Sequence record: PQ631072.1
DNA length: 64,000 nt
Strand: one strand, 5' to 3'
Source of the DNA: Escherichia phage EC.P2
Shown here: positions 22,987 to 32,857 of the stretch, piece after piece
Layout: every line of letters starts with the position of its first letter
Position numbering within the stretch: the first letter of the stretch is position 1
Translations under genes and position numbers: made by a program
Notes under the pieces: model-generated
The model's input: only the letters and a program-made list of their open reading frames with translations
Databases searched by the model: none
Told to the model about the DNA's origin: nothing

Positions 22987-23934
22987 TTAGAAACAGTGCA
23001 GGAAGTTTCGACCATATTGCAAACCAATAGGCGCAAATGGGATATCATCATCGAAATCTTGAACAACAGGTTCTGGTTCTTTCGGTGCTGGCTCTTTCTT
23101 CTCTACTTTTTTAGTTTCTTTCTTAACTTCTTGTACTGGAGTAGACATTCCACGGATAGCAGCAGCTACTTTATCAGACAAAGCAAGAACTTCACGAGCA
23201 GCTTCAATAATCTCTTCTGCCGTTACAGTTTTACCTGTATGATCACGACAAGCGTTAAGAATTGCGTGTCCAACTGAAGCACCAAGATCATAATCAGTCA
23301 CATCAACGCCACGATCTTTAGCAATTTCAGCTTTCAGAGTAACAGTTGCAGATTGTACCACACCAGCCAAGTCGAAAGCATCACCTTTCACACCAGCACG
23401 TAGAAGCTCCAGAGCGCCGTTTACAGCGTGTCCTGTTTCAATCCCTACGGTATCACGTTTTTTGTAGTTAGGCTTGCTACCGTCATTATTAGAGGGCTTA
23501 TTTCCACCTTTTGAAGAGGATTGTGCTTGCTGAACACCTTCTGTTGAAAGAATAGTGATTTTACCTTTAGAGGAGTTGTAGTATGTTTTGCCATTCCATT
23601 CAGAAGGTTTAACATCCATAGTTAGTTCTACACCTTTTTCGATAGTAACCCACTTATCACCATCTTTAACTTGCAGGTTTTCATGTTCTGGGTGCAGTTT
23701 AACTTCACCTAGGCTAACCCAAACACCTTTATCATCAGCACCAGCACCTTTCTCTTTAATAAGCAGAGATGCTTTGTGAGTTGATTCAATTTTCTTATCT
23801 GGCTGACCTGCAACCTTAATATAAGAGACTTTCATTTCATCAAACTTATCTAGTTTGACATATTCGACAATACCTTCAGCCCAGAATGCTTCTTTTTTAG
23901 TACGACGGTCGATTTCAGAATTAATTACTGGCAT
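22987..23934 (-). CDS. putative single-stranded DNA-binding protein
   Basis: 315 aa; acidic DFDDDIPF motif near C-terminus (resembles SSB tail, although not at the extreme end), Lys-rich linker. Confidence 0.45.
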   Translation of the reverse strand: MPVINSEIDRRTKKEAFWAEGIVEYVKLDKFDEMKVSYIKVAGQPDKKIESTHKASLLIKEKGAGADDKGVWVSLGEVKLHPEHENLQVKDGDKWVTIEKGVELTMDVKPSEWNGKTYYNSSKGKITILSTEGVQQAQSSSKGGNKPSNNDGSKPNYKKRDTVGIETGHAVNGALELLRAGVKGDAFDLAGVVQSATVTLKAEIAKDRGVDVTDYDLGASVGHAILNACRDHTGKTVTAEEIIEAAREVLALSDKVAAAIRGMSTPVQEVKKETKKVEKKEPAPKEPEPVVQDFDDDIPFAPIGLQYGRNFLHCF

Positions 23935-23950
23935 AAATTCTCCTCTATAA

Positions 23951-24349
23951 TTACATTACTTTAACACAAAACTCTCGTAAAAGAGTAGCGTCAGTTTCTT
24001 CCAACAGGTATTTACCAAGACCAATACCAAATCCTATTTCACCACTTTCAAAATGGAGAATTTGTATCTTTTCTCCACCAAGATTAATTACTTTTGCTTT
24101 TCCAGGATTATCCAAAACATCTCGTATTGTGTCCTGTAGTAGCATTAGTTCACGTTTTGTGATAGTGGTTTCAGATATCTCTTTGTCTTCTACCCGCACT
24201 GTTAAACGGTTGTATCCACCAAAGAGACATAGTATTTGAATAAAAAAGGTATTATCTTGAGGTTCAACATCTTTTTTAGTTAGTTCAAGACGATTAGTTT
24301 CTCTACTATAGAACGTCTCGACTAAGATTTTAGAACGATTGTCTATCAT
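23951..24349 (-). CDS. hypothetical protein
   Basis: 132 aa ORF in leftward operon. Confidence 0.4.
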   Translation of the reverse strand: MIDNRSKILVETFYSRETNRLELTKKDVEPQDNTFFIQILCLFGGYNRLTVRVEDKEISETTITKRELMLLQDTIRDVLDNPGKAKVINLGGEKIQILHFESGEIGFGIGLGKYLLEETDATLLREFCVKVM

Positions 24350-24392
24350 TCAAGTCCTCATAATAACACATAATTGTAAGGTTTGTCAACAC

Positions 24393-24986
24393 TTAAATCT
24401 TAAATTCTTCGTTGTTAAATGAATCCAGTGTACGTACTTCTGGTTCTTTGGGAATGAAAACGTCTTTTACAAAGCGGAACATAGGGAAACGTTCTGCCAT
24501 TTTACGGACGTGTGCTTCTTTACCTGTGTATCGGTGATTAATAGTGCAAATATTAGTTTTCAATGCAAATTCAAAATCTGGATGATATACATAATTTTGA
24601 CCATCCCAGTAACACAGGCAAATAGCTACGTCAAAGTTCCATACGATTTCACTGCGTACACCTTCTTCCATGATCATAAAGTTAAACTTAAGGTCTTTAT
24701 AGTATGCTTCAAATACCCATTTCAAATGTGGTAGTTCGGCATAAGTGTGTTCTGTTTGCTTAGTAAGTTGTTTAACATTACGTGCACCAACACCCAACAT
24801 CAAAAACTTCTCTACTAGCACGAGTGTATTGTGGTTAGGCATACGCAAGTAAATGTCAATATCTTGTGCAGGTTTCTCTAATCGCCAATCACGTACAGCG
24901 CCGCCAGCTACAATTGCAAACGGATCTACCAGTTGGCACATACGTAATACTTCTAAAGCGCGTACTTTTTGATCTTCAATATTCAT
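24393..24986 (-). CDS. nucleotidyltransferase (Pol-beta superfamily, CCA-adding / poly(A) polymerase-type head domain)
   Basis: 197 aa; motif AIVAGGAVRDWRL...DIDIYL matches GGAVRD ... DxD catalytic signature; ATG with AGGAGA RBS. Confidence 0.55.
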   Translation of the reverse strand: MNIEDQKVRALEVLRMCQLVDPFAIVAGGAVRDWRLEKPAQDIDIYLRMPNHNTLVLVEKFLMLGVGARNVKQLTKQTEHTYAELPHLKWVFEAYYKDLKFNFMIMEEGVRSEIVWNFDVAICLCYWDGQNYVYHPDFEFALKTNICTINHRYTGKEAHVRKMAERFPMFRFVKDVFIPKEPEVRTLDSFNNEEFKI

Positions 24987-25123
24987 ATTTTCTCCTATCT
25001 CTTATGGTCTTTGCGTTATTCTAGATGTTCAAACATCTAATTATGAAATGGTTTAAAAGTGTGGAACAACCTTGGCAATAATAGATTGTCCCACATAAAA
25101 ACTCCTTTAAAATCAAAGGGATG

Positions 25124-27703
25124 TCAGTGACAAGACGCCCATGAGTTACCAACATCGTAACCAGCAGTGAGAGGTACATTAAGATTGTAATACTCACCAG
25201 CTTTATTAACAGCGATAGATGCTAATTCTCCAGCACGACTGTAGGCTGTAAACCAACCACCTTTCGGAGATTCATGTACGTTAGCCCAAATCTTGCCAGT
25301 ACGTTTCTCTTCCTCTTCTTTCCAGGCGTTAACTTTATCCAAACATTCTTTATCAATTTTCTTTTGTTCTTCTGGATCATCAACTTGAGTCCAACCTAAA
25401 GATTCTTTAGAGAACCATTTAAAATGCACGAGATCACGAGTTACTTCAAGCTGTGCTTCATCGTGATATGCAATCATTTGTTGAACGAATGACTTATTTT
25501 TCCAGTCATCAACAAAAAAGTCAACAGCTAATCCTTCTTCTTCGATAAGATCATCGTAGATAACCATTGCTCTTTTTGCACAAATAACACCACCACTCTG
25601 GAACAGAGAGTTAAGTATTGCGTGTGCAGATCGTGTAGGTACTTTCCTTCCATCAATACCAAGAATGTATTTCTTACCTGTTTTAACCCAAAAGTCATGC
25701 AGACGTTCTTTAAGAAGCGCAAGAGGTTTTGCAGCTTCCCAGAAAGCATCGTATACAAGCTGTCCTGTATACATATCACTACCAATAGTTTTTGCTACTT
25801 TTGCAGCTTGAGCACCATAAGTAATACCATACTTAACAGATTTAGCAGGGCTTCGTTCAAACTTACGACCAATAGTGTCAGAAATACGTCGAGCCATCAT
25901 TGTATGAACATCATTAGGTTTTTCCAACAATAGAGCATTACAATATTCGTGTGGTTCCTGCTCGTACCGCCAACAGTAGTGTGATTCTATTTTTGCCTCA
26001 AGAGAATCAAAGTCATAACCAATTTGGAAGTATTTTGGAACTTCTACACCAAATAAGTTACGCATTTCATATCCGTACAGAGATGTTACACGTGGGATAT
26101 TTGCTACTAACCTATGTTTCATACGAGACGTAGCTGCATCACACGTTGCAGCAGGAGTTGGTATACGACCATCAGCCCTTACTGCCGCCAGATAACCTTT
26201 ATCGTAATCCTCTTCATCTTCTTCCCAATCAGCGCCACCCCCTAGAATAGAGTTTCTACGATGTTTATACGTAAGATACTGCACAATCTGCGTAGCATAA
26301 GGAAACTTTTCACCTAGTGCTTCCAAGTTAGGACAAATATCCTTCTCTTGCCCTTTTGTAAAGGAAGGGTTAGTAAGCACTTTAACACCACGACCTTTAG
26401 CTTTAGCAATACGATCTCTTAGTTTCCATTCCAAAGTTTCTGGTGTGCACTCCAGATGATCACATCTGTCCTGGCAGAAGTTAGATGCTAATGTTTGATC
26501 AACATAGTCACGAATAGCTTTCTCCATTTGTGCTTCATCTTTCTTAATCTTAGTGCCAGATTTAAGAGTGATATCTTTATCTTTATATTCAGATGGACTC
26601 CAACCTAAACCAACTAACCAATTTTTAATATGTGTAGTGTCGTCTAAAGTAGCAGGTACTGTAGGATCACAAATAGGTTCTTCTGCTGGAATAGGTAGTT
26701 TAAACTCTTTACCTAATGCAAATAACCACCAACCATCTTCTTTTTGTACAAGTTCACCAGAATGTTTCTCTGCAAACTTTATCATGTTACTTGAAGGTTC
26801 ACCATTCTTTTTAAACTGTAGTTTAGGTGGAATGAATGATTTCAAATAACCTTTAGTAGCAGGTTTAGGAGGTAGTACAGGTTCTGCCTCTAAACGACAT
26901 GCTTCCATTCGAGCATCCAGATCACGAATATTATCTTCTGCTTGTTTCATATTGAAAGCAAAGCCACGGTGCTCTTGACGTGTAATAATATCAGCTACAC
27001 GTTGTTCTAAGTTAAATGGTTCAGACCACTTATTATAATCACCCCACTCTTCCATCAAATAACGGAACACTGCGGTGTTAGCTTTGTTATCGTAAATACA
27101 GTAATACAGCATATCTGCTGCAAATGTTCTAAATCTTTCAGTTTCAGGAATGTTTTTTCTAAAATCAATTTTAACATCCCCTCCAGCTTTCTTAGATAAC
27201 TCTGCCAGACTATGACCACCGAAGCGATCAGGGTTTAGTGTCTTACTTAAGATCATAGTATCACAAATTTCAATGTTACTATTACCCCAAGTATTGTACT
27301 TAATACTGTAGTTGAGTTTAAAAAATAATTTAATTGCCAGTAAGTCGAAGTTAATGATGTTGTGTCCAACTACTTTGGTAATTTTATAGTTTGAATTACC
27401 TTTAAATTTACCTGTTCCATTTACAAAATCAGGAAAATCTTTAAGAGGGAAATGGGTATATTCTAAATGCTCATATTCCTCCAGTCGGTATTCATACTTT
27501 CCGTCAGTCTCAATATACGGACGACCATCGAAAAGATATTTATCACCATCATGGAAAGCAATAATCTCTCCAGTATCATGACTTTCACACACAATACAGT
27601 GCATTGCAAAACTATCTTTTAAACGATATGGACTTGCCAAGTAATCTACACTTTCGTCATTAAGCAAGTTGTTACTTTCAATGTCGAAAGTAAAAGCTCC
27701 CAT
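25124..27703 (-). CDS. DNA polymerase, family A (T7-like, with 3'-5' exonuclease domain)
   Basis: 859 aa; exo motif VVGHNIINFDL; Pol I motif B-like RSPAKSVKYGITYGAQAAKVA; GGAGGGAGA RBS. Confidence 0.85.
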   Translation of the reverse strand: MGAFTFDIESNNLLNDESVDYLASPYRLKDSFAMHCIVCESHDTGEIIAFHDGDKYLFDGRPYIETDGKYEYRLEEYEHLEYTHFPLKDFPDFVNGTGKFKGNSNYKITKVVGHNIINFDLLAIKLFFKLNYSIKYNTWGNSNIEICDTMILSKTLNPDRFGGHSLAELSKKAGGDVKIDFRKNIPETERFRTFAADMLYYCIYDNKANTAVFRYLMEEWGDYNKWSEPFNLEQRVADIITRQEHRGFAFNMKQAEDNIRDLDARMEACRLEAEPVLPPKPATKGYLKSFIPPKLQFKKNGEPSSNMIKFAEKHSGELVQKEDGWWLFALGKEFKLPIPAEEPICDPTVPATLDDTTHIKNWLVGLGWSPSEYKDKDITLKSGTKIKKDEAQMEKAIRDYVDQTLASNFCQDRCDHLECTPETLEWKLRDRIAKAKGRGVKVLTNPSFTKGQEKDICPNLEALGEKFPYATQIVQYLTYKHRRNSILGGGADWEEDEEDYDKGYLAAVRADGRIPTPAATCDAATSRMKHRLVANIPRVTSLYGYEMRNLFGVEVPKYFQIGYDFDSLEAKIESHYCWRYEQEPHEYCNALLLEKPNDVHTMMARRISDTIGRKFERSPAKSVKYGITYGAQAAKVAKTIGSDMYTGQLVYDAFWEAAKPLALLKERLHDFWVKTGKKYILGIDGRKVPTRSAHAILNSLFQSGGVICAKRAMVIYDDLIEEEGLAVDFFVDDWKNKSFVQQMIAYHDEAQLEVTRDLVHFKWFSKESLGWTQVDDPEEQKKIDKECLDKVNAWKEEEEKRTGKIWANVHESPKGGWFTAYSRAGELASIAVNKAGEYYNLNVPLTAGYDVGNSWASCH

Positions 27704-28199: not shown

Positions 28200-29972
28200 T
28201 TAATAAGAACCATCAGGAATATTCTCTGGGTTACTTGTGTATTGATCGTAATCGTGAAGTGTCGCTGTTTTAATCTCATAGAAGAAACTACCTGCTGCAC
28301 CAGTCTCTGAGAACTCACGGTTCTTTAGAATGTAGCAATATGTGCGGTTACGTTCCATAGGATCTTCAGCTTGTTTATCACGCTCCAGCGCAATTGTGAT
28401 ACCAGCACCTTTAGCAAGGAAGCTACTACCCATTGCATCATCTTCTACAATATGTTCATTACTATTGTTAGAAGACTTTTTAACGTGTGAAATTACAACA
28501 ATGGTAATTGCGTACTCTTTCATAATGCGTTTGAGCCACGTCGCAAGTTCCTCTTGTTGTGACACGTCCATACCAGAAAGCAAGTCAGAATAAGGGTCGA
28601 TAACAAGAATGGTTACTCCGAAATAAATAATCATTTCCAGAACCTTCTCTTTAATCACATCTACGTTAGCTCCACGATCATCACAAACATAGAAACGTGG
28701 TGTTCCATCTTCTCGTTCGTAAAAATCACGAATCTTTTCTTCATTATCTTTTAAAATCTTTTCCTTCTCTTCTTTTGTTTTACGGTGAAGAGGGATGTGC
28801 AAGAATGAAGACAGTAAGTTACGAGAATACTTCTTATACGTTGCCTCCAAAGATAAAATACCAAGAGTATGTTCTGGGTGTGCAAGAATAATGTGCTTTG
28901 TAATCTCGTTAACCAACAGTGTTTTACCGATACTTGTTTTTGCAAGTATAACAGTAATTTCTTCTTCTACCAAGCCTCCACCTAACATATTAGAAGCAAC
29001 ACGCATGAATGGAGGAAGGGTAATCATTTTAGCTTCCAGGCATTCCAAGGCTGCTTCATACAGTACGTTAGAAGCATAAACACCAGCAGGTGTGTACAGT
29101 TTAGCTTTGAAAAAGCGATCAAGAAAGTGATCAATTTTTCCTTCTACTAGTGCCTGGTTAGGATCTTTAACATCCGTTAGTTCCATCACGTAAACTTTAT
29201 TACGTGGTAAGATTTTAACACATTTCTCAACTGCTGCACGTCCAGCTTCATCATTATCCATACACAGAACAATCTTTTTAAATTGATCTAAGAATTTATA
29301 ACGATGTTGAAGCTGCTTATGCAGAGATGTTTCGCCACAAGTACCAGATACTACAGCAGGAACAGGATATTTACCGCCCTTGTTATAATCTTTTAGCATC
29401 TGTGTTGCAGCCAGCATATCGTGTTCACCACCAACGATTAGAATAGTACCGCTGTGGTTACGATATTTAAACTCCCCAAAAAGATCACAATCCTTCCCTG
29501 TTTCACCAATAGGATGCGAAAAATCTTTTGGATCGATACGTTGTTTATACCCAGCAATATTGTAATCTTTAGTTGTAGGGTATAGTGTTGAAATTACTTC
29601 GCCAGTAGCTTCATCGTACATATAGCGTACACCGAAAGGTTTAGAGATATCTTCACGAATACCGCGATAACCTTTTGGATTAGTTCCAGTGCTGGCTTTT
29701 AGTTTATCATGTACTTCTGGATTAAACTCACTACCCAAGATATCCTCCTCTTCAATTTCTTCGCCGTGTGCATTTAACCATTTTTGATCAGGGATAGTAA
29801 AGCCACAAGAAAAACAATGTGCGCCTCGATGGTCTTCATCGGCATCTAAGCCATATACCATCAAATTGTTTTGTGATCGATCACGCCCTCCTTTCATACA
29901 ACGAGGACACCCAGTATGTCCTTCTTGACTTAGATCAATGTTATACCCATATTTATTTACAACATAAGACAC
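28200..29972 (-). CDS. primase-helicase (T7 gp4-like)
   Basis: 590 aa; Zn-ribbon CPRCMKGG...CFSCGF, TOPRIM-like middle, DnaB-type Walker A (ILAKTSIGKTLL); GTG start with AGGAGA RBS. Confidence 0.85.
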   Translation of the reverse strand: MSYVVNKYGYNIDLSQEGHTGCPRCMKGGRDRSQNNLMVYGLDADEDHRGAHCFSCGFTIPDQKWLNAHGEEIEEEDILGSEFNPEVHDKLKASTGTNPKGYRGIREDISKPFGVRYMYDEATGEVISTLYPTTKDYNIAGYKQRIDPKDFSHPIGETGKDCDLFGEFKYRNHSGTILIVGGEHDMLAATQMLKDYNKGGKYPVPAVVSGTCGETSLHKQLQHRYKFLDQFKKIVLCMDNDEAGRAAVEKCVKILPRNKVYVMELTDVKDPNQALVEGKIDHFLDRFFKAKLYTPAGVYASNVLYEAALECLEAKMITLPPFMRVASNMLGGGLVEEEITVILAKTSIGKTLLVNEITKHIILAHPEHTLGILSLEATYKKYSRNLLSSFLHIPLHRKTKEEKEKILKDNEEKIRDFYEREDGTPRFYVCDDRGANVDVIKEKVLEMIIYFGVTILVIDPYSDLLSGMDVSQQEELATWLKRIMKEYAITIVVISHVKKSSNNSNEHIVEDDAMGSSFLAKGAGITIALERDKQAEDPMERNRTYCYILKNREFSETGAAGSFFYEIKTATLHDYDQYTSNPENIPDGSY

Positions 29973-29984
29973 ATGATTCTCCTA

Positions 29985-30254
29985 CTAAAATGATTCGTTT
30001 GTCTCCATAATATATTGCATTTCCAAATCTTCCATATGTTTCTTAAATTGGTAAACAATTTCCGATGGGGAAATATCTATATCAAAAAGTTCTTTTGTAC
30101 CAGAATAGAACCTAATACCATCAACAATAAGGCCACCATAATAATCCCAATCACTTTCTCGTGAGAAAGGATTAGGTTCTTCATAATAGTAATCTACTTC
30201 AACAATAATAGGTTCTTTATTATCTTGTTTATACTCAAAATCAAAAGTGTTCAT
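29985..30254 (-). CDS. hypothetical protein
   Basis: 89 aa acidic ORF; 1-nt overlap with upstream gene. Confidence 0.4.
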   Translation of the reverse strand: MNTFDFEYKQDNKEPIIVEVDYYYEEPNPFSRESDWDYYGGLIVDGIRFYSGTKELFDIDISPSEIVYQFKKHMEDLEMQYIMETNESF

Positions 30255-31198
30255 TATAAATCCTCGATAAGCAGTCTGCGGGTTTCATTTAAATCATCAA
30301 TATTGTAGTTATCTCTTACATACTTAGCAAGAGCTAATCCTTTCTCAATACAAACATCAGGAGATTCGATTAAGTATTCTACAACATCTTTCCACTCTTT
30401 AACTGAATCAGCAAAGAAGATTAGATCTTTAAATTCTTCAGTATAGTAGTTCTCTCGTGGAGAACAAACGAGTGGCAAACCTTTAGCACCAGCCTCAAGA
30501 ATTTTTAAATTACTTTTGGCATTATTAAAATGATTATTTACTAATGGAGCTATGGAGATTTGATGACCATCGTATGCCTCCATATAACACTCATAAGGAC
30601 GAATACCTTCATAAACACAATCTGGTTGAATCTCTTCTTTAATTTGCAACCATTGAGCACTACTTAACTCTTCGTGATCTCTACGAAATCCACATAACGT
30701 TAAATCTTTACCAAAAGTAGGAAGAATTGCTAAATCATGTTTATGTGTTTCACTTCCCGCCCAAACCAGTGGGCTTTTAGAATAACGATCTTTAGTAAGA
30801 ACAAACTGCCCTTCATCAAAAGGTAGTCCGTTAGGCACAATATGTACATTATCATTGTATTGGCTTAATTCAACCTTTAATGCTGGAGTTGTTGTAGTTA
30901 CAAGATCGCTTCTTTCAAGGAACCATTTTAGGTCATCTCGGATTTGATTTTCAAATAATCCTTCCAACATATGCCCTTCAGGAATAATTAAAGAATCATC
31001 CAGATCCATTACCAATTTAAACCCAAGTTGTTTAAGAGCCAGGAAACCTGGCTTTCCACGAGTTGGTACTCCATTGAACACAAAAATATTATGCTTAGGA
31101 TTAATGGTCAGTTTGCGTTTATATGGCAAAATGATTCTATGAAAATCACATACACTATACCTTTCATGTCCACGTGTGTCAAGAATAATATTAGGCAT
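30254..31198 (-). CDS. glycosyltransferase (GT-B-like), paralogue 1
   Basis: 314 aa; C-terminal motif NLKILEAGAKGLPLVCSP; shares TKDRYS...P..WAG and HxIxIAPLVNN.FNN.KSNLKILEAGAKGLP blocks with adjacent paralogue. Confidence 0.5.
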   Translation of the reverse strand: MPNIILDTRGHERYSVCDFHRIILPYKRKLTINPKHNIFVFNGVPTRGKPGFLALKQLGFKLVMDLDDSLIIPEGHMLEGLFENQIRDDLKWFLERSDLVTTTTPALKVELSQYNDNVHIVPNGLPFDEGQFVLTKDRYSKSPLVWAGSETHKHDLAILPTFGKDLTLCGFRRDHEELSSAQWLQIKEEIQPDCVYEGIRPYECYMEAYDGHQISIAPLVNNHFNNAKSNLKILEAGAKGLPLVCSPRENYYTEEFKDLIFFADSVKEWKDVVEYLIESPDVCIEKGLALAKYVRDNYNIDDLNETRRLLIEDL

Positions 31199-31209
31199 AT
31201 GGCTCCTTG

Positions 31210-32184
31210 TTAAAGACTTTCAATAACTTGACGACGCAGTTCATTGGCATCTGCAAGATTATAATTAAGACGAACGTGTTCTGCAAGCATCATACCACGA
31301 TCTTCTGTGTATCTAGGGTTCCTCATTAGCTTGACAACTTCATAATGCCAAGATGCTTTAGAATCTGCATAGATAACAGCCTTTGCATCTACCGGATTGA
31401 AGTACGGCAGCACAGGAGAACAGATAATAGGAAGACCCTTTGCACCTGCTTCCAAAATCTTCAAATTGCTTTTACAGTTGTTGAAGTCATTATCTACCAG
31501 AGGAGCAATTGCAATACTGTGACCGTCATACACAGACATATACTCACCTAAATTTTTAATAGCTGGTTTATACTGTGCATTTGGAATTTTACGTTTTACT
31601 TTAACCCACTCCGCAGTAGTTAGATACTGACTATTATTTCCAACAGGTGCAGAAGGATACACTTCATACCCTGCAATTGTCAATAGTGTATCATCAAATG
31701 TATTAGCTACAAGAGATAAATCAGGTTCATGGCTTGCTCCTCCAGCCCAAATAATAGGCGTGTCAGAATAACGGTCTTTTGTCAAAGTAAATTGACCTTC
31801 ATCGTAAGGTAGTGCGTTTCTAATAACGACAACATTACGATTTAAATGACGAATTTTGTAAGCCAGGTATTCTGTTGTTACAGTAACAACATCTGCTAAC
31901 TTAATCATCTCTACAATAGTCTTTGAGTGATTAGTAAATACGCCAGCCATATAATGTTCAGGATTAAGCGAATAAAAGTCATCTAAATCAACAATAATCT
32001 TAACACCTTGTGCCTTCAGGCGTTTAACTTCGTCTGATCCACGAGAATACACTCTATTAAAAACTAAAACGTCTTTCTTAGGCTTAAACGTATTTCCCGC
32101 AAATGGCATTACAATACGATGGTAATCACAACCACTGCCTAACTTATTATCACACTTAAGTACAGGGGTATTAGGATTTACCAT
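31210..32184 (-). CDS. glycosyltransferase (GT-B-like), paralogue 2
   Basis: Track ORF 31210..32223; ATG at 32184 has GAGGAGG RBS and aligns with paralogue 1 N-terminus; ATG at 32223 also has an RBS, so start is uncertain. Confidence 0.5.
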   Translation of the reverse strand: MVNPNTPVLKCDNKLGSGCDYHRIVMPFAGNTFKPKKDVLVFNRVYSRGSDEVKRLKAQGVKIIVDLDDFYSLNPEHYMAGVFTNHSKTIVEMIKLADVVTVTTEYLAYKIRHLNRNVVVIRNALPYDEGQFTLTKDRYSDTPIIWAGGASHEPDLSLVANTFDDTLLTIAGYEVYPSAPVGNNSQYLTTAEWVKVKRKIPNAQYKPAIKNLGEYMSVYDGHSIAIAPLVDNDFNNCKSNLKILEAGAKGLPIICSPVLPYFNPVDAKAVIYADSKASWHYEVVKLMRNPRYTEDRGMMLAEHVRLNYNLADANELRRQVIESL

Positions 32185-32857
32185 ATTTTTGAGCCTCCTC
32201 ATAAGAGATAAAAGTTTTACCATTGCGAAGATCCTCCAGTGATTGTTTATATTGTTCCCAGTTTACACCAATCCCCTGTTCTTTCTCTTCTTTTGACAGA
32301 TTTGCAAAAGGTAAAGGATTATCTCCAAACACATCGTCAGGATGGATAAACGCCATAATTCGAATAGGGCATGGTACGCCGTGAATACCTCGGTTCAAAC
32401 CTGCTAGTGGAACACGCTGAATCCACTCTGCATCTTCATATCCATAACCGTGGGTGTATGAGCGGAAATAGCCAGCTTTCTCAATAACTGCACGGGAATA
32501 CATACCAAACTGGCACATACCTAGTTCCCAAATAACCACTTCACCTTCAATACCTTTTACTTTATCTTTAAAATATTCAGGCATACCAAAGAAATCCCAG
32601 CCATTTTCCTTAGCCTGTTTTACAAAATATGTTTCCCAACCTGGCACAACCGGATAGCAATCATCATCAAAAATAAACCAGTAATCATACCCTTCATCAT
32701 AAAACTTTTTCATCAGTTCATTACGGGCATATGCAACACCTTTTCGTTCCCGATCATACTGTACAACAAAAGTAGCATTAGGATCAGTCACAAGATAATC
32801 TTTAAGAGGACGCTTACCTACAGTAATAACACCAACACCAATTTTTGTATTTTCCAA
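32171..32857 (-). CDS. glycosyltransferase (GT-A fold, family 2-like)
   Basis: 228 aa; DxD region YDYWFIFDDDCYP. Confidence 0.5.
   Translation of the reverse strand: MENTKIGVGVITVGKRPLKDYLVTDPNATFVVQYDRERKGVAYARNELMKKFYDEGYDYWFIFDDDCYPVVPGWETYFVKQAKENGWDFFGMPEYFKDKVKGIEGEVVIWELGMCQFGMYSRAVIEKAGYFRSYTHGYGYEDAEWIQRVPLAGLNRGIHGVPCPIRIMAFIHPDDVFGDNPLPFANLSKEEKEQGIGVNWEQYKQSLEDLRNGKTFISYEEAQKYGKS

What the first reader, a model, noticed from the sequence alone, without database searches (positions are those of the whole stretch)
24393..24986. Stand-alone Pol-beta-type nucleotidyltransferase head domain
A 197-aa protein carries the GGAVRD ... DxD signature of CCA-adding enzymes and poly(A) polymerases but lacks the usual body/tail domains. 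Minimal NTases in phages may repair tRNA 3' ends cleaved by host anticodon or CCA nucleases, or make nucleotide signals or decoys.
Basis: partly seen in the sequence, partly recalled or inferred. Interest (0 to 1): 0.5.

Follow-up and report, generated by a model that had tools for sequence, protein, structure and literature searches.

The report
Minimal phage nucleotidyltransferase beside DNA polymerase
This is the already-annotated phi92 gp158 gene: a small, phage-only enzyme built like the catalytic head of the enzymes that add CCA or poly(A) tails to RNA, carried among the phage's DNA-replication genes; nobody has tested what it adds nucleotides to.

Summary
Window 24393..24986 (minus strand) encodes a 197-aa protein with GGAVRD (residues 28-33) and D42-x-D44. 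It is 100% identical to phi92 gp158, which RefSeq annotates as 'nucleotidyltransferase'.

[quoted passage not shown] By sequence, only the N-terminal helix and motif A are shared. The RRD and EDxxR specificity motifs and the tRNA-binding body and tail domains are absent. The canonical third-carboxylate position is Gln/Asn in 96% of relatives.

The family is large (997 representatives at 50% clustering), about 190 aa, stand-alone and essentially virus-only. In 30 of 42 lineages it lies within 6 kb of a T7-type primase/helicase, DNA polymerase or exonuclease, nearly always on the same strand. tRNA genes are nearby in 5 of 42, and no RNA-repair genes recur. All 15 tRNA genes of a 97%-identical phage already encode CCA.

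Most likely it is an active minimal terminal nucleotidyltransferase acting on RNA 3' ends, but not a canonical CCA-adding enzyme. tRNA-tail repair, a DNA or replication role, and non-nucleic-acid acceptors remain open. The gene family is already catalogued and its function is untested. Interest is modest.

The parts
24393..24986 (-). CDS of the 197-aa stand-alone nucleotidyltransferase (phi92 gp158 orthologue, 100% aa identity)
24992..24996 (-). Shine-Dalgarno AGGAG, 5 nt before the ATG
   Evidence: the same RBS is annotated in phi92
24855..24905 (-). Motif A: G28-G29-A-V-R32-D33-W34 ... D42-I-D44. This is the NTP/Mg2+ binding loop plus the two catalytic Asp on strand beta2.
   Evidence: G28, G29, W34, D42 and D44 are invariant in 95/95 relatives; R32 and D33 are >90% conserved. 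It is the only segment that aligns by sequence to class II CCA enzymes.
24681..24710 (-). beta4-beta5 hairpin carrying E93 (24708-24710) and N102 (24681-24683), the candidate third metal ligand(s)
   Evidence: Secondary structure. Conservation and E93/N102 covariation. The rule that the third acid sits on strand 5 comes from PMC11646218. The residue mapping is inferred, not superposed.
24462..24620 (-). Family-specific C-terminal beta/alpha sub-domain (residues ~123-175) with conserved W126, K128, F138, Y153, H159, K162 and F167-P168. It occupies the place of the start of the class II neck and has no EDxxR template.
   Evidence: low-confidence hhalign path; inference
25124..27703 (-). Family A (T7-like) DNA polymerase, immediately upstream in the same orientation
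   Evidence: phrog_17, E 1.7e-111
28200..29972 (-). T7 gp4-type primase/helicase of the same replication block
   Evidence: phrog_239, E 1.8e-166
23951..24349 (-). Downstream 132-aa protein (phi92 gp157-like, phrog_16560, function unknown). It sits at position +1 in 4 of 42 lineages only.
22987..23934 (-). 315-aa protein (phi92 gp156-like, phrog_4477), annotated as single-stranded DNA-binding protein in several related records
24360..24389 (-). Near-consensus sigma70-like promoter (TTGACA-18-TATTAT, with TG) just after the NTase stop codon. It suggests the downstream gene can be transcribed on its own.
   Evidence: a consensus match only

Best explanation
The gene encodes a catalytically competent, phage-restricted minimal nucleotidyltransferase. 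Its core is homologous to the head of class II tRNA nucleotidyltransferases and bacterial poly(A) polymerase, and it is expressed with the phage's T7-type replication genes (primase/helicase, PolA, NTase, SSB-like). Shown: the fold, the invariant GG...DxD site, purifying selection, restriction to viruses, and the replication-module context. Inferred mechanism: the G28-G29 loop and R32 hold the triphosphate of an NTP, and D42/D44 on strand beta2 bind Mg2+. The third ligand is supplied unconventionally, by E93 on beta4 together with Gln/Asn102 on beta5. The C-terminal sub-domain (W126, K128, Y153, H159, K162) closes over the nucleotide in place of the neck's EDxxR template. The NMP is then transferred, without a template, to the 3'-OH of an RNA end. 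A tRNA-like acceptor end is the leading candidate, because small NTases such as MenT act on tRNA acceptor ends without body or tail domains. It lacks motifs B-E and the tRNA-measuring domains, so it is not a canonical CCA-adding enzyme. It would add one kind of nucleotide or a short, loosely specified tail, or it would need a partner for specificity.
Against: No biochemical data exist for any member in the literature I could search. Gene neighbourhood points to DNA replication rather than RNA or tRNA metabolism: 30 of 42 lineages have a replication gene within 6 kb, 5 of 42 have a tRNA gene, and no RNA ligase or kinase cluster recurs. The family pI is near neutral (median 6.4), which is unusual for a protein that must hold RNA by itself. 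The canonical third-carboxylate position is Gln/Asn in 96% of members, and about 20% have no acidic residue at either position 93 or 102. The RRD ribose-sensing motif is absent, so NTP versus dNTP preference cannot be predicted. E. coli already has its own Cca enzyme.
Confidence: 0.4

Rival explanations
1. It is a true tRNA CCA repair enzyme. It would rebuild CCA tails removed by host exonucleases or by tail-cleaving immune nucleases and so keep translation running during infection.
For: Its closest folds are CCA-adding enzymes. Cleavage of tRNA CCA tails is now a documented anti-phage mechanism (Cas12a3), and the authors state that the viral counter-measure is unknown (PMC12851939). One relative (L013) sits 2.5-4.5 kb from a 10-tRNA cluster in which 9 genes lack encoded CCA. 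Small 'TRNT-like' genes are widely annotated in Autographiviridae (PMC8472413, PMC9145550).
Against: Motif D (the EDxxR nucleotide template), motif B (RRD), the flexible-loop context and the body and tail tRNA-binding domains are absent. These define CCA specificity (PMC11784652). It scores below the Pfam and NCBIfam cut-offs (19.1 vs 23 bits; 15 vs 290 bits). tRNA genes lie within 6 kb in only 5 of 42 lineages. All 15 tRNAs of a 97%-identical phage encode CCA and lie about 40 kb away. The host has its own Cca.
Confidence: 0.12
2. It is a replication-linked enzyme acting on DNA or primers. As a terminal transferase it would add (d)NMPs to DNA 3' ends, RNA primers or replication intermediates, or otherwise serve the T7-type replisome.
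Against: All closest structural relatives are RNA-specific enzymes. The gene is found in only 196 of 50,697 phage records by tblastn, so it is accessory rather than a core replisome part. T7-type replication blocks are known to harbour unrelated host-takeover and anti-defence genes (my own knowledge of T7 class II genes), so position alone is weak evidence. No DNA-binding domain is detectable.
Confidence: 0.2
3. It nucleotidylates a non-nucleic-acid acceptor or makes a nucleotide product. Examples are AMPylation of a host or phage protein, modification of a metabolite, or synthesis of a signal or decoy that interferes with host immunity.
Against: There is no hit to any PADLOC defence or signalling NTase model. 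These enzyme classes are clearly more distant than class II RNA NTases. There is no conserved partner or target gene next to it: the only conserved +1/+2 neighbours occur in 4 of 42 lineages.
Confidence: 0.15
4. It is a non-catalytic remnant: a nucleotide- or RNA-binding protein that has lost transferase activity.
For: The canonical third carboxylate on strand 5 is Gln/Asn in 96% of members, and about 20% have no acidic residue at either position 93 or 102. ICP1 keeps only a truncated 137-139-aa copy.
Against: GG and both Asp are absolutely conserved across about 25%-identical relatives, which is hard to explain without metal and NTP chemistry. In all three members where position 102 is Asp, position 93 is Lys or Arg, which looks like maintenance of one carboxylate at the site. 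Known NT-fold enzymes work with fewer than three acids, for example RelA/SpoT and Tam41 (PMC11646218).
Confidence: 0.03

Closest known systems
[quoted passage not shown] PDB 1MIV, 4WBY, 3AQL)
   Different: It is 197 aa rather than 350-480 aa. It has no body or tail, no RRD (motif B), no EDxxR template (motif D), and Gln/Asn at the third-carboxylate position. It scores below the Pfam and NCBIfam thresholds. It is virus-only and sits in a DNA-replication block.
Stand-alone 'CCA-adding enzyme head domain' protein NP_344798.1 of Streptococcus pneumoniae (PDB 2LA3, 191 aa)
   Different: Identity is only 9%. It is bacterial rather than viral. No sequence-level relationship was detected.
Small 'TRNT-like' nucleotidyltransferases of Autographiviridae and other phages (e.g. 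Ahp1 ORF19, LKD16, Pectobacterium PP2, Caulobacter Cd1)
   Same: They are stand-alone class-II-like heads of about 170-215 aa encoded next to the phage DNA polymerase. They are annotated by similarity only, with no experiments.
   Different: They form a different sequence family: 14-21% identity and Foldseek TM 0.55-0.66. They fall outside the profile hits that define this family.
MenT/AbiEii nucleotidyltransferase toxins (e.g. MenT1, PDB 8AN4)
   Different: They are toxins of bacterial toxin-antitoxin systems with a cognate antitoxin. This protein has no sequence match to them and no antitoxin-like partner, and it lies in lytic phages.
RlaP (PF10127), the RNA-ligase-associated Pol-beta NTase of jumbo phages and bacteria
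   Same: It is a phage-borne Pol-beta NTase proposed to restore nucleotides at damaged RNA ends (PMC7824862; PMC12776372).
   Different: The query has no PF10127 hit. No RNA ligase or kinase recurs among its neighbours.

Membership tests
Pol-beta nucleotidyltransferase superfamily | Signature hG[GS]x9-13Dh[DE]h | tested here: met
   A27-G28-G29, then 12 residues, then D42-I43-D44-I45. The pattern is as quoted in PMC11646218.
Pol-beta nucleotidyltransferase superfamily | NT fold: helix, strand 1, GG loop and helix, strand 2 carrying two acids, then strands 3-4-5 | tested here: met
Pol-beta nucleotidyltransferase superfamily | Third catalytic carboxylate on strand 5 | tested here: inconclusive
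   The strand-5 position that faces the site by register (residue 102) is Gln 79%, Asn 17%, Asp 3%. The cross-strand residue E93 is acidic in 71%.
Class II CCA-adding enzyme / poly(A) polymerase family (PF01743) | Motif A, GGxVRD...DxD | tested here: met
   D42/D44 align to D40/D42 of BstCCA (1MIV).
Class II CCA-adding enzyme / poly(A) polymerase family (PF01743) | Score at or above the curated family threshold | tested here: not met
   Pfam PolyA_pol gives 19.1 bits against a cut-off of 23. NCBIfam CCA tRNA nucleotidyltransferase gives 15 bits against 290. hhalign against an E. coli-type Cca profile aligns only 24 columns, probability 21%.
Class II CCA-adding enzyme / poly(A) polymerase family (PF01743) | Motif B (RRD) and motif D (EDxxR nucleotide template) | tested here: not met
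   No conserved RRD or EDxxR exists anywhere in the 95-sequence alignment. The query's E107-E108-G-V-R111 is not conserved in the family. Motif definitions come from PMC11784652, and the BstCCA sequence was verified.
Class II CCA-adding enzyme / poly(A) polymerase family (PF01743) | Helical neck, body and tail domains that bind the tRNA | tested here: not met
   The protein ends at residue 197. Relatives are 175-220 aa. Adjacent genes have no PF12627 or any other Pfam match.
Class II CCA-adding enzyme / poly(A) polymerase family (PF01743) | Template-independent addition of C, C, A (or poly(A)) to an RNA 3' end | not testable with these tools
   This needs an enzyme assay.
Phage family PHROG 1614 / 10174 and Pfam PF26128 (stand-alone phage nucleotidyltransferase, uncharacterised) | Significant full-length profile match | tested here: met
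   phrog_1614 at E 2e-34 over residues 7-193, and phrog_10174 at E 2.2e-26. PF26128 is precomputed for the 99%-identical cluster representative. That model is not in the local Pfam copy, so its name could not be read.
RlaP (PF10127) RNA-repair NTase | PF10127 match and adjacency to an RNA ligase | tested here: not met
   There is no PF10127 hit at E<=1. No RNA ligase appears among recurrent neighbours.
Defence and signalling NTases (CD-NTases, MenT/AbiEii, MNT of HEPN-MNT) | Match to a PADLOC or Pfam model of these families | tested here: not met

The most novel reading that the evidence does not exclude
This roughly 1000-cluster, virus-only family may be the missing phage counter-measure to immunity that attacks tRNA 3' tails (Cas12a3-type CCA-tail cleavage, CCA-trimming nucleases). 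It would be a minimal, body-less tail-rebuilding enzyme that phages carry with their replication genes. Alternatively, and equally unexcluded, it may be a new untemplated terminal transferase that is an accessory of T7-type replisomes.
Probability: 0.15. Interest if true: 0.7.

Novelty: new member of a known kind. Interest (0 to 1): 0.33.

Why it matters
If the enzyme repairs or tails tRNA or RNA 3' ends, it would be a phage answer to tRNA-tail-directed immunity. The authors of the Cas12a3 study state that this counter-measure is unknown (PMC12851939). If it instead acts on DNA or primers, it would be an unrecognised accessory of the widespread T7-type replication module. Either way, a very large family found almost only in lytic phages, always beside the replisome genes, has no tested function. 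A few simple assays would settle it. As a sequence finding it is not new: the gene is annotated in dozens of genomes and sits in PHROG and Pfam families.

Tried and rejected
1. Split CCA enzyme (body and tail encoded by the next gene). I rejected this. The downstream 132-aa and 315-aa proteins have no Pfam match, a strong promoter-like site separates them from the NTase, and they accompany it in only 4 of 42 lineages.

2. Maturation of phage tRNAs that lack CCA. I rejected this for this phage. The window has no tRNA, and all 15 tRNA genes of a 97%-identical genome encode CCA.

3. Rosetta-stone evidence from fusions. Some relatives carry N- or C-terminal extensions, but these match only families of unknown function, so they were uninformative.

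4. Residue-level mapping to class II enzymes by profile methods. HMMER and hhalign align only motif A with confidence. A relaxed hhalign run (50% probability) gave a path in the middle of the protein that conflicts with the predicted strand order, so I did not rely on it.

5. The afdb50 fold library was unavailable. Model coordinates could not be retrieved, so no superposition or distance measurement was possible.

6. My initial impression that the DNA polymerase is split in this window was wrong. phi92 instead carries an extra in-frame insertion.

7. Literature searches for any biochemical characterisation of this or similar small phage NTases found only genome-annotation statements.

8. Cellular homologues. 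A scan of 185,579 species genomes found 12 loci, all on MAG contigs, two of which (131 and 148 kb) are phage-genome-sized. The scan relied on the AGGA[PV]RDW peptide pattern, so divergent cellular relatives could have been missed.

Full report
**What is there.** The window is a phi92-like Escherichia myovirus (Justusliebigvirus, Stephanstirmvirinae). A 1.3-kb probe around the finding is 95-99% identical to 55 phage records. The ORF at 24393..24986 on the minus strand (ATG start, 197 aa, AGGAG 5 nt upstream) is 100% identical in protein sequence to phi92 gp158. RefSeq calls that protein 'nucleotidyltransferase', and some GenBank records call it 'putative tRNA nucleotidyl transferase/poly(A) polymerase'. 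Against phi92 the gene shows 11 nucleotide differences and no amino-acid difference, so it is under purifying selection.

**Family.**
- Pfam's PolyA_pol head model matches below threshold (19.1 vs 23 bits, residues 26-81).
- PHROG 1614 'nucleotidyltransferase' matches the full length at 2e-34.
- The 99%-identical cluster representative carries the precomputed Pfam accession PF26128. That model is missing from the local Pfam copy, so I could not read its name.
- An exhaustive HMMER search of 1.84 billion representatives found 997 relatives at E<=1e-3, and almost all of the top 150 are 175-220 aa.
- In an alignment of 95 relatives (22-47% identical to the query), G28, G29, W34, D42 and D44 are invariant. 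Q6, A10, L14, A27, A30, R32, D33, A40, Y82 and K162 are conserved in more than 90%.
- D119, which resembles the Asp of the class II 'RRD' motif in the query, is not conserved.
- A scan of one genome per 185,579 prokaryotic species found only 12 loci, all on metagenome-assembled contigs. Two of these contigs (131 and 148 kb) are phage-genome-sized.
- tblastn finds the family in 196 of 50,697 phage records: phi92-like, phAPEC8-like, Klebsiella, many Vibrio phages, and a truncated copy in ICP1.
- The family is therefore essentially viral, and accessory rather than universal.

**Structure.**
- AlphaFold2 with the 95-sequence alignment gives pLDDT 93.3 and pTM 0.86.
- All 45 Foldseek PDB matches at E<=0.001 are class II CCA-, CC- or A-adding enzymes or bacterial poly(A) polymerase, with 150-200 aligned columns.
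- BFVD shows that many phages encode comparable stand-alone heads of 170-215 aa.

By sequence, only the N-terminal helix and motif A align to class II enzymes. D42/D44 correspond to D40/D42 of BstCCA, whose sequence I verified against PDB 1MIV. The elements that make a class II enzyme a CCA-adding enzyme are motifs B-E, above all the EDxxR template, plus the helical body and tail (PMC11784652; PMC11646218). These elements are absent.

**The third carboxylate.** In the NT fold the third acid lies on strand 5 (PMC11646218). In the model, strand 5 is residues 99-106. By register with the BstCCA hairpin (G75...E79 against G98...N102), the equivalent residue is N102. That position is Gln in 79%, Asn in 17% and Asp in 3% of the family. 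Its cross-strand neighbour E93 is acidic in 71%. In all three sequences where 102 is Asp, 93 is Lys or Arg, and about 20% have no acid at either position. This mapping is inferred from secondary structure. I could not obtain model coordinates to superpose, and a relaxed hhalign path disagrees at low confidence. The metal site, however, looks non-canonical.

**Context.**
- In the window the order on the minus strand is: primase/helicase (28200-29972), a small gp160-like ORF, family A DNA polymerase (25124-27703), the NTase, a 132-aa protein of unknown function, the SSB-like gp156 homologue, and an N6/N4 DNA methyltransferase.
- I fetched 80 IMG/VR loci encoding relatives, called genes, and grouped the NTases into 42 lineages at 60% identity.
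- A T7 gp4-type primase/helicase (phrog_239) lies within 6 kb in 25 lineages, a DNA polymerase in 23 and a 5'-3' exonuclease in 9.
- Thirty of 42 lineages have at least one of these, almost always on the same strand and 1-4 genes away.
- HNH homing endonucleases are also frequent (12 lineages).
- tRNA genes occur within 6 kb in 5 lineages, and no RNA ligase or polynucleotide kinase cluster recurs.
- phAPEC8 and Curvibacter phage P26059A show the same placement.
- The analogous small NTase of phiKMV-like phage Ahp1 sits between ligase and DNA polymerase (PMC5014404).
- The window has no tRNA gene. In a 97%-identical genome all 15 tRNA genes encode CCA and lie about 40 kb from the NTase.
- The family pI is near neutral (median 6.4).

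**Interpretation.** The solid part is identity. This is an active-looking, phage-restricted, minimal Pol-beta NTase descended from, or sharing ancestry with, the class II head. It is retained under selection and co-inherited with T7-type replication genes.

The acceptor is not established. I give most weight to homology: every close structural relative transfers NMPs to RNA 3' ends, and MenT-type enzymes show that a body-less NTase can work on tRNA acceptor ends. I therefore commit to untemplated nucleotide addition to an RNA 3' end by a non-canonical, loosely specific enzyme (0.4). The rivals are:
- a true CCA repair enzyme (0.12);
- a DNA, primer or replication-linked terminal transferase, favoured by context and by loss of the ribose-sensing RRD motif (0.2);
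- a non-nucleic-acid acceptor or a nucleotide product (0.15);
- a non-catalytic remnant (0.03).

About 0.1 is left unassigned for roles not considered here.

Cas12a3 cleaves tRNA CCA tails as anti-phage immunity, and its discoverers say the viral escape route is unknown (PMC12851939). Nothing in the sequence or its surroundings specifically supports that link.

**Comparison and novelty.** Membership of the Pol-beta superfamily is met. Membership of the class II CCA/PAP family fails on curated thresholds, motifs B and D, and domain architecture, although the catalytic head works like one. The protein belongs to catalogued but uncharacterised phage families (PHROG 1614/10174, PF26128). The literature I could search contains only similarity-based annotations of such genes and no experiments. 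The finding is therefore a correct reading of an already-annotated gene. Its interest lies in the untested function of a very large virus-only family, not in the discovery of the gene.

Noticed in passing
window 24360-24389 (-): A near-consensus sigma70-type promoter (TTGACA, 18 nt, TATTAT, with an extended -10 TG; 11 of 12 matches) lies in the 43-nt gap between the NTase stop codon and the next gene. It is the best match in a 7-kb scan.
   Followed up: no
window ~25975, inside the DNA polymerase gene 25124-27703; L001 10077-10808: phi92's DNA polymerase (1104 aa) carries a 244/245-aa in-frame insertion that is absent from this window's 859-aa polymerase. The inserted segment has no PHROG match, and an intein or another mobile insertion was not tested.
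   Followed up: partly
window 30254-32857 (-): Three consecutive glycosyltransferase genes (phrog_7162 twice, phrog_2456) sit directly upstream of the primase/helicase, inside the replication block. Whether they modify DNA or a cell-surface glycan is unknown.
   Followed up: no
GenBank MG065639, MG065645, MG065656, MG065689 (L098-L100): Four 'UNVERIFIED: Campylobacter phage' records are about 97% identical to this E. coli phi92-like phage over the probe and are classified as Justusliebigvirus, so the host label looks doubtful. The one genome scanned (MG065639, strain A150) carries 15 tRNA genes, all with encoded CCA.
   Followed up: partly
L004 3959-4378 (Vibrio phage ICP1_2006_E ORF223): ICP1 phages keep only a truncated 137-139-aa version of this NTase (query residues 3-126), lacking the C-terminal sub-domain. 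PHROG 10174 appears to model this short form.
   Followed up: no
L013 9155-11108: In a 147-kb IMG/VR phage contig, a cluster of 10 tRNA genes lies 2.5-4.5 kb downstream of the NTase homologue, and 9 of them lack an encoded CCA. In the four other loci with nearby tRNAs, all the tRNA genes encode CCA.
   Followed up: partly
IMG/VR loci L006-L085: HNH homing endonuclease genes (phrog_953 and others) lie next to the NTase and replication genes in 12 of 42 lineages. This suggests the module is a hot spot for mobile endonucleases.
   Followed up: no
representative proteins P0029, P0036, P0050, P0060, P0075, P0097, P0109: Some relatives carry N-terminal extensions of 75-210 aa, including a repeated roughly 85-aa unit that matches phrog_17589 (unknown function). 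These might be targeting or substrate-binding modules.
   Followed up: partly
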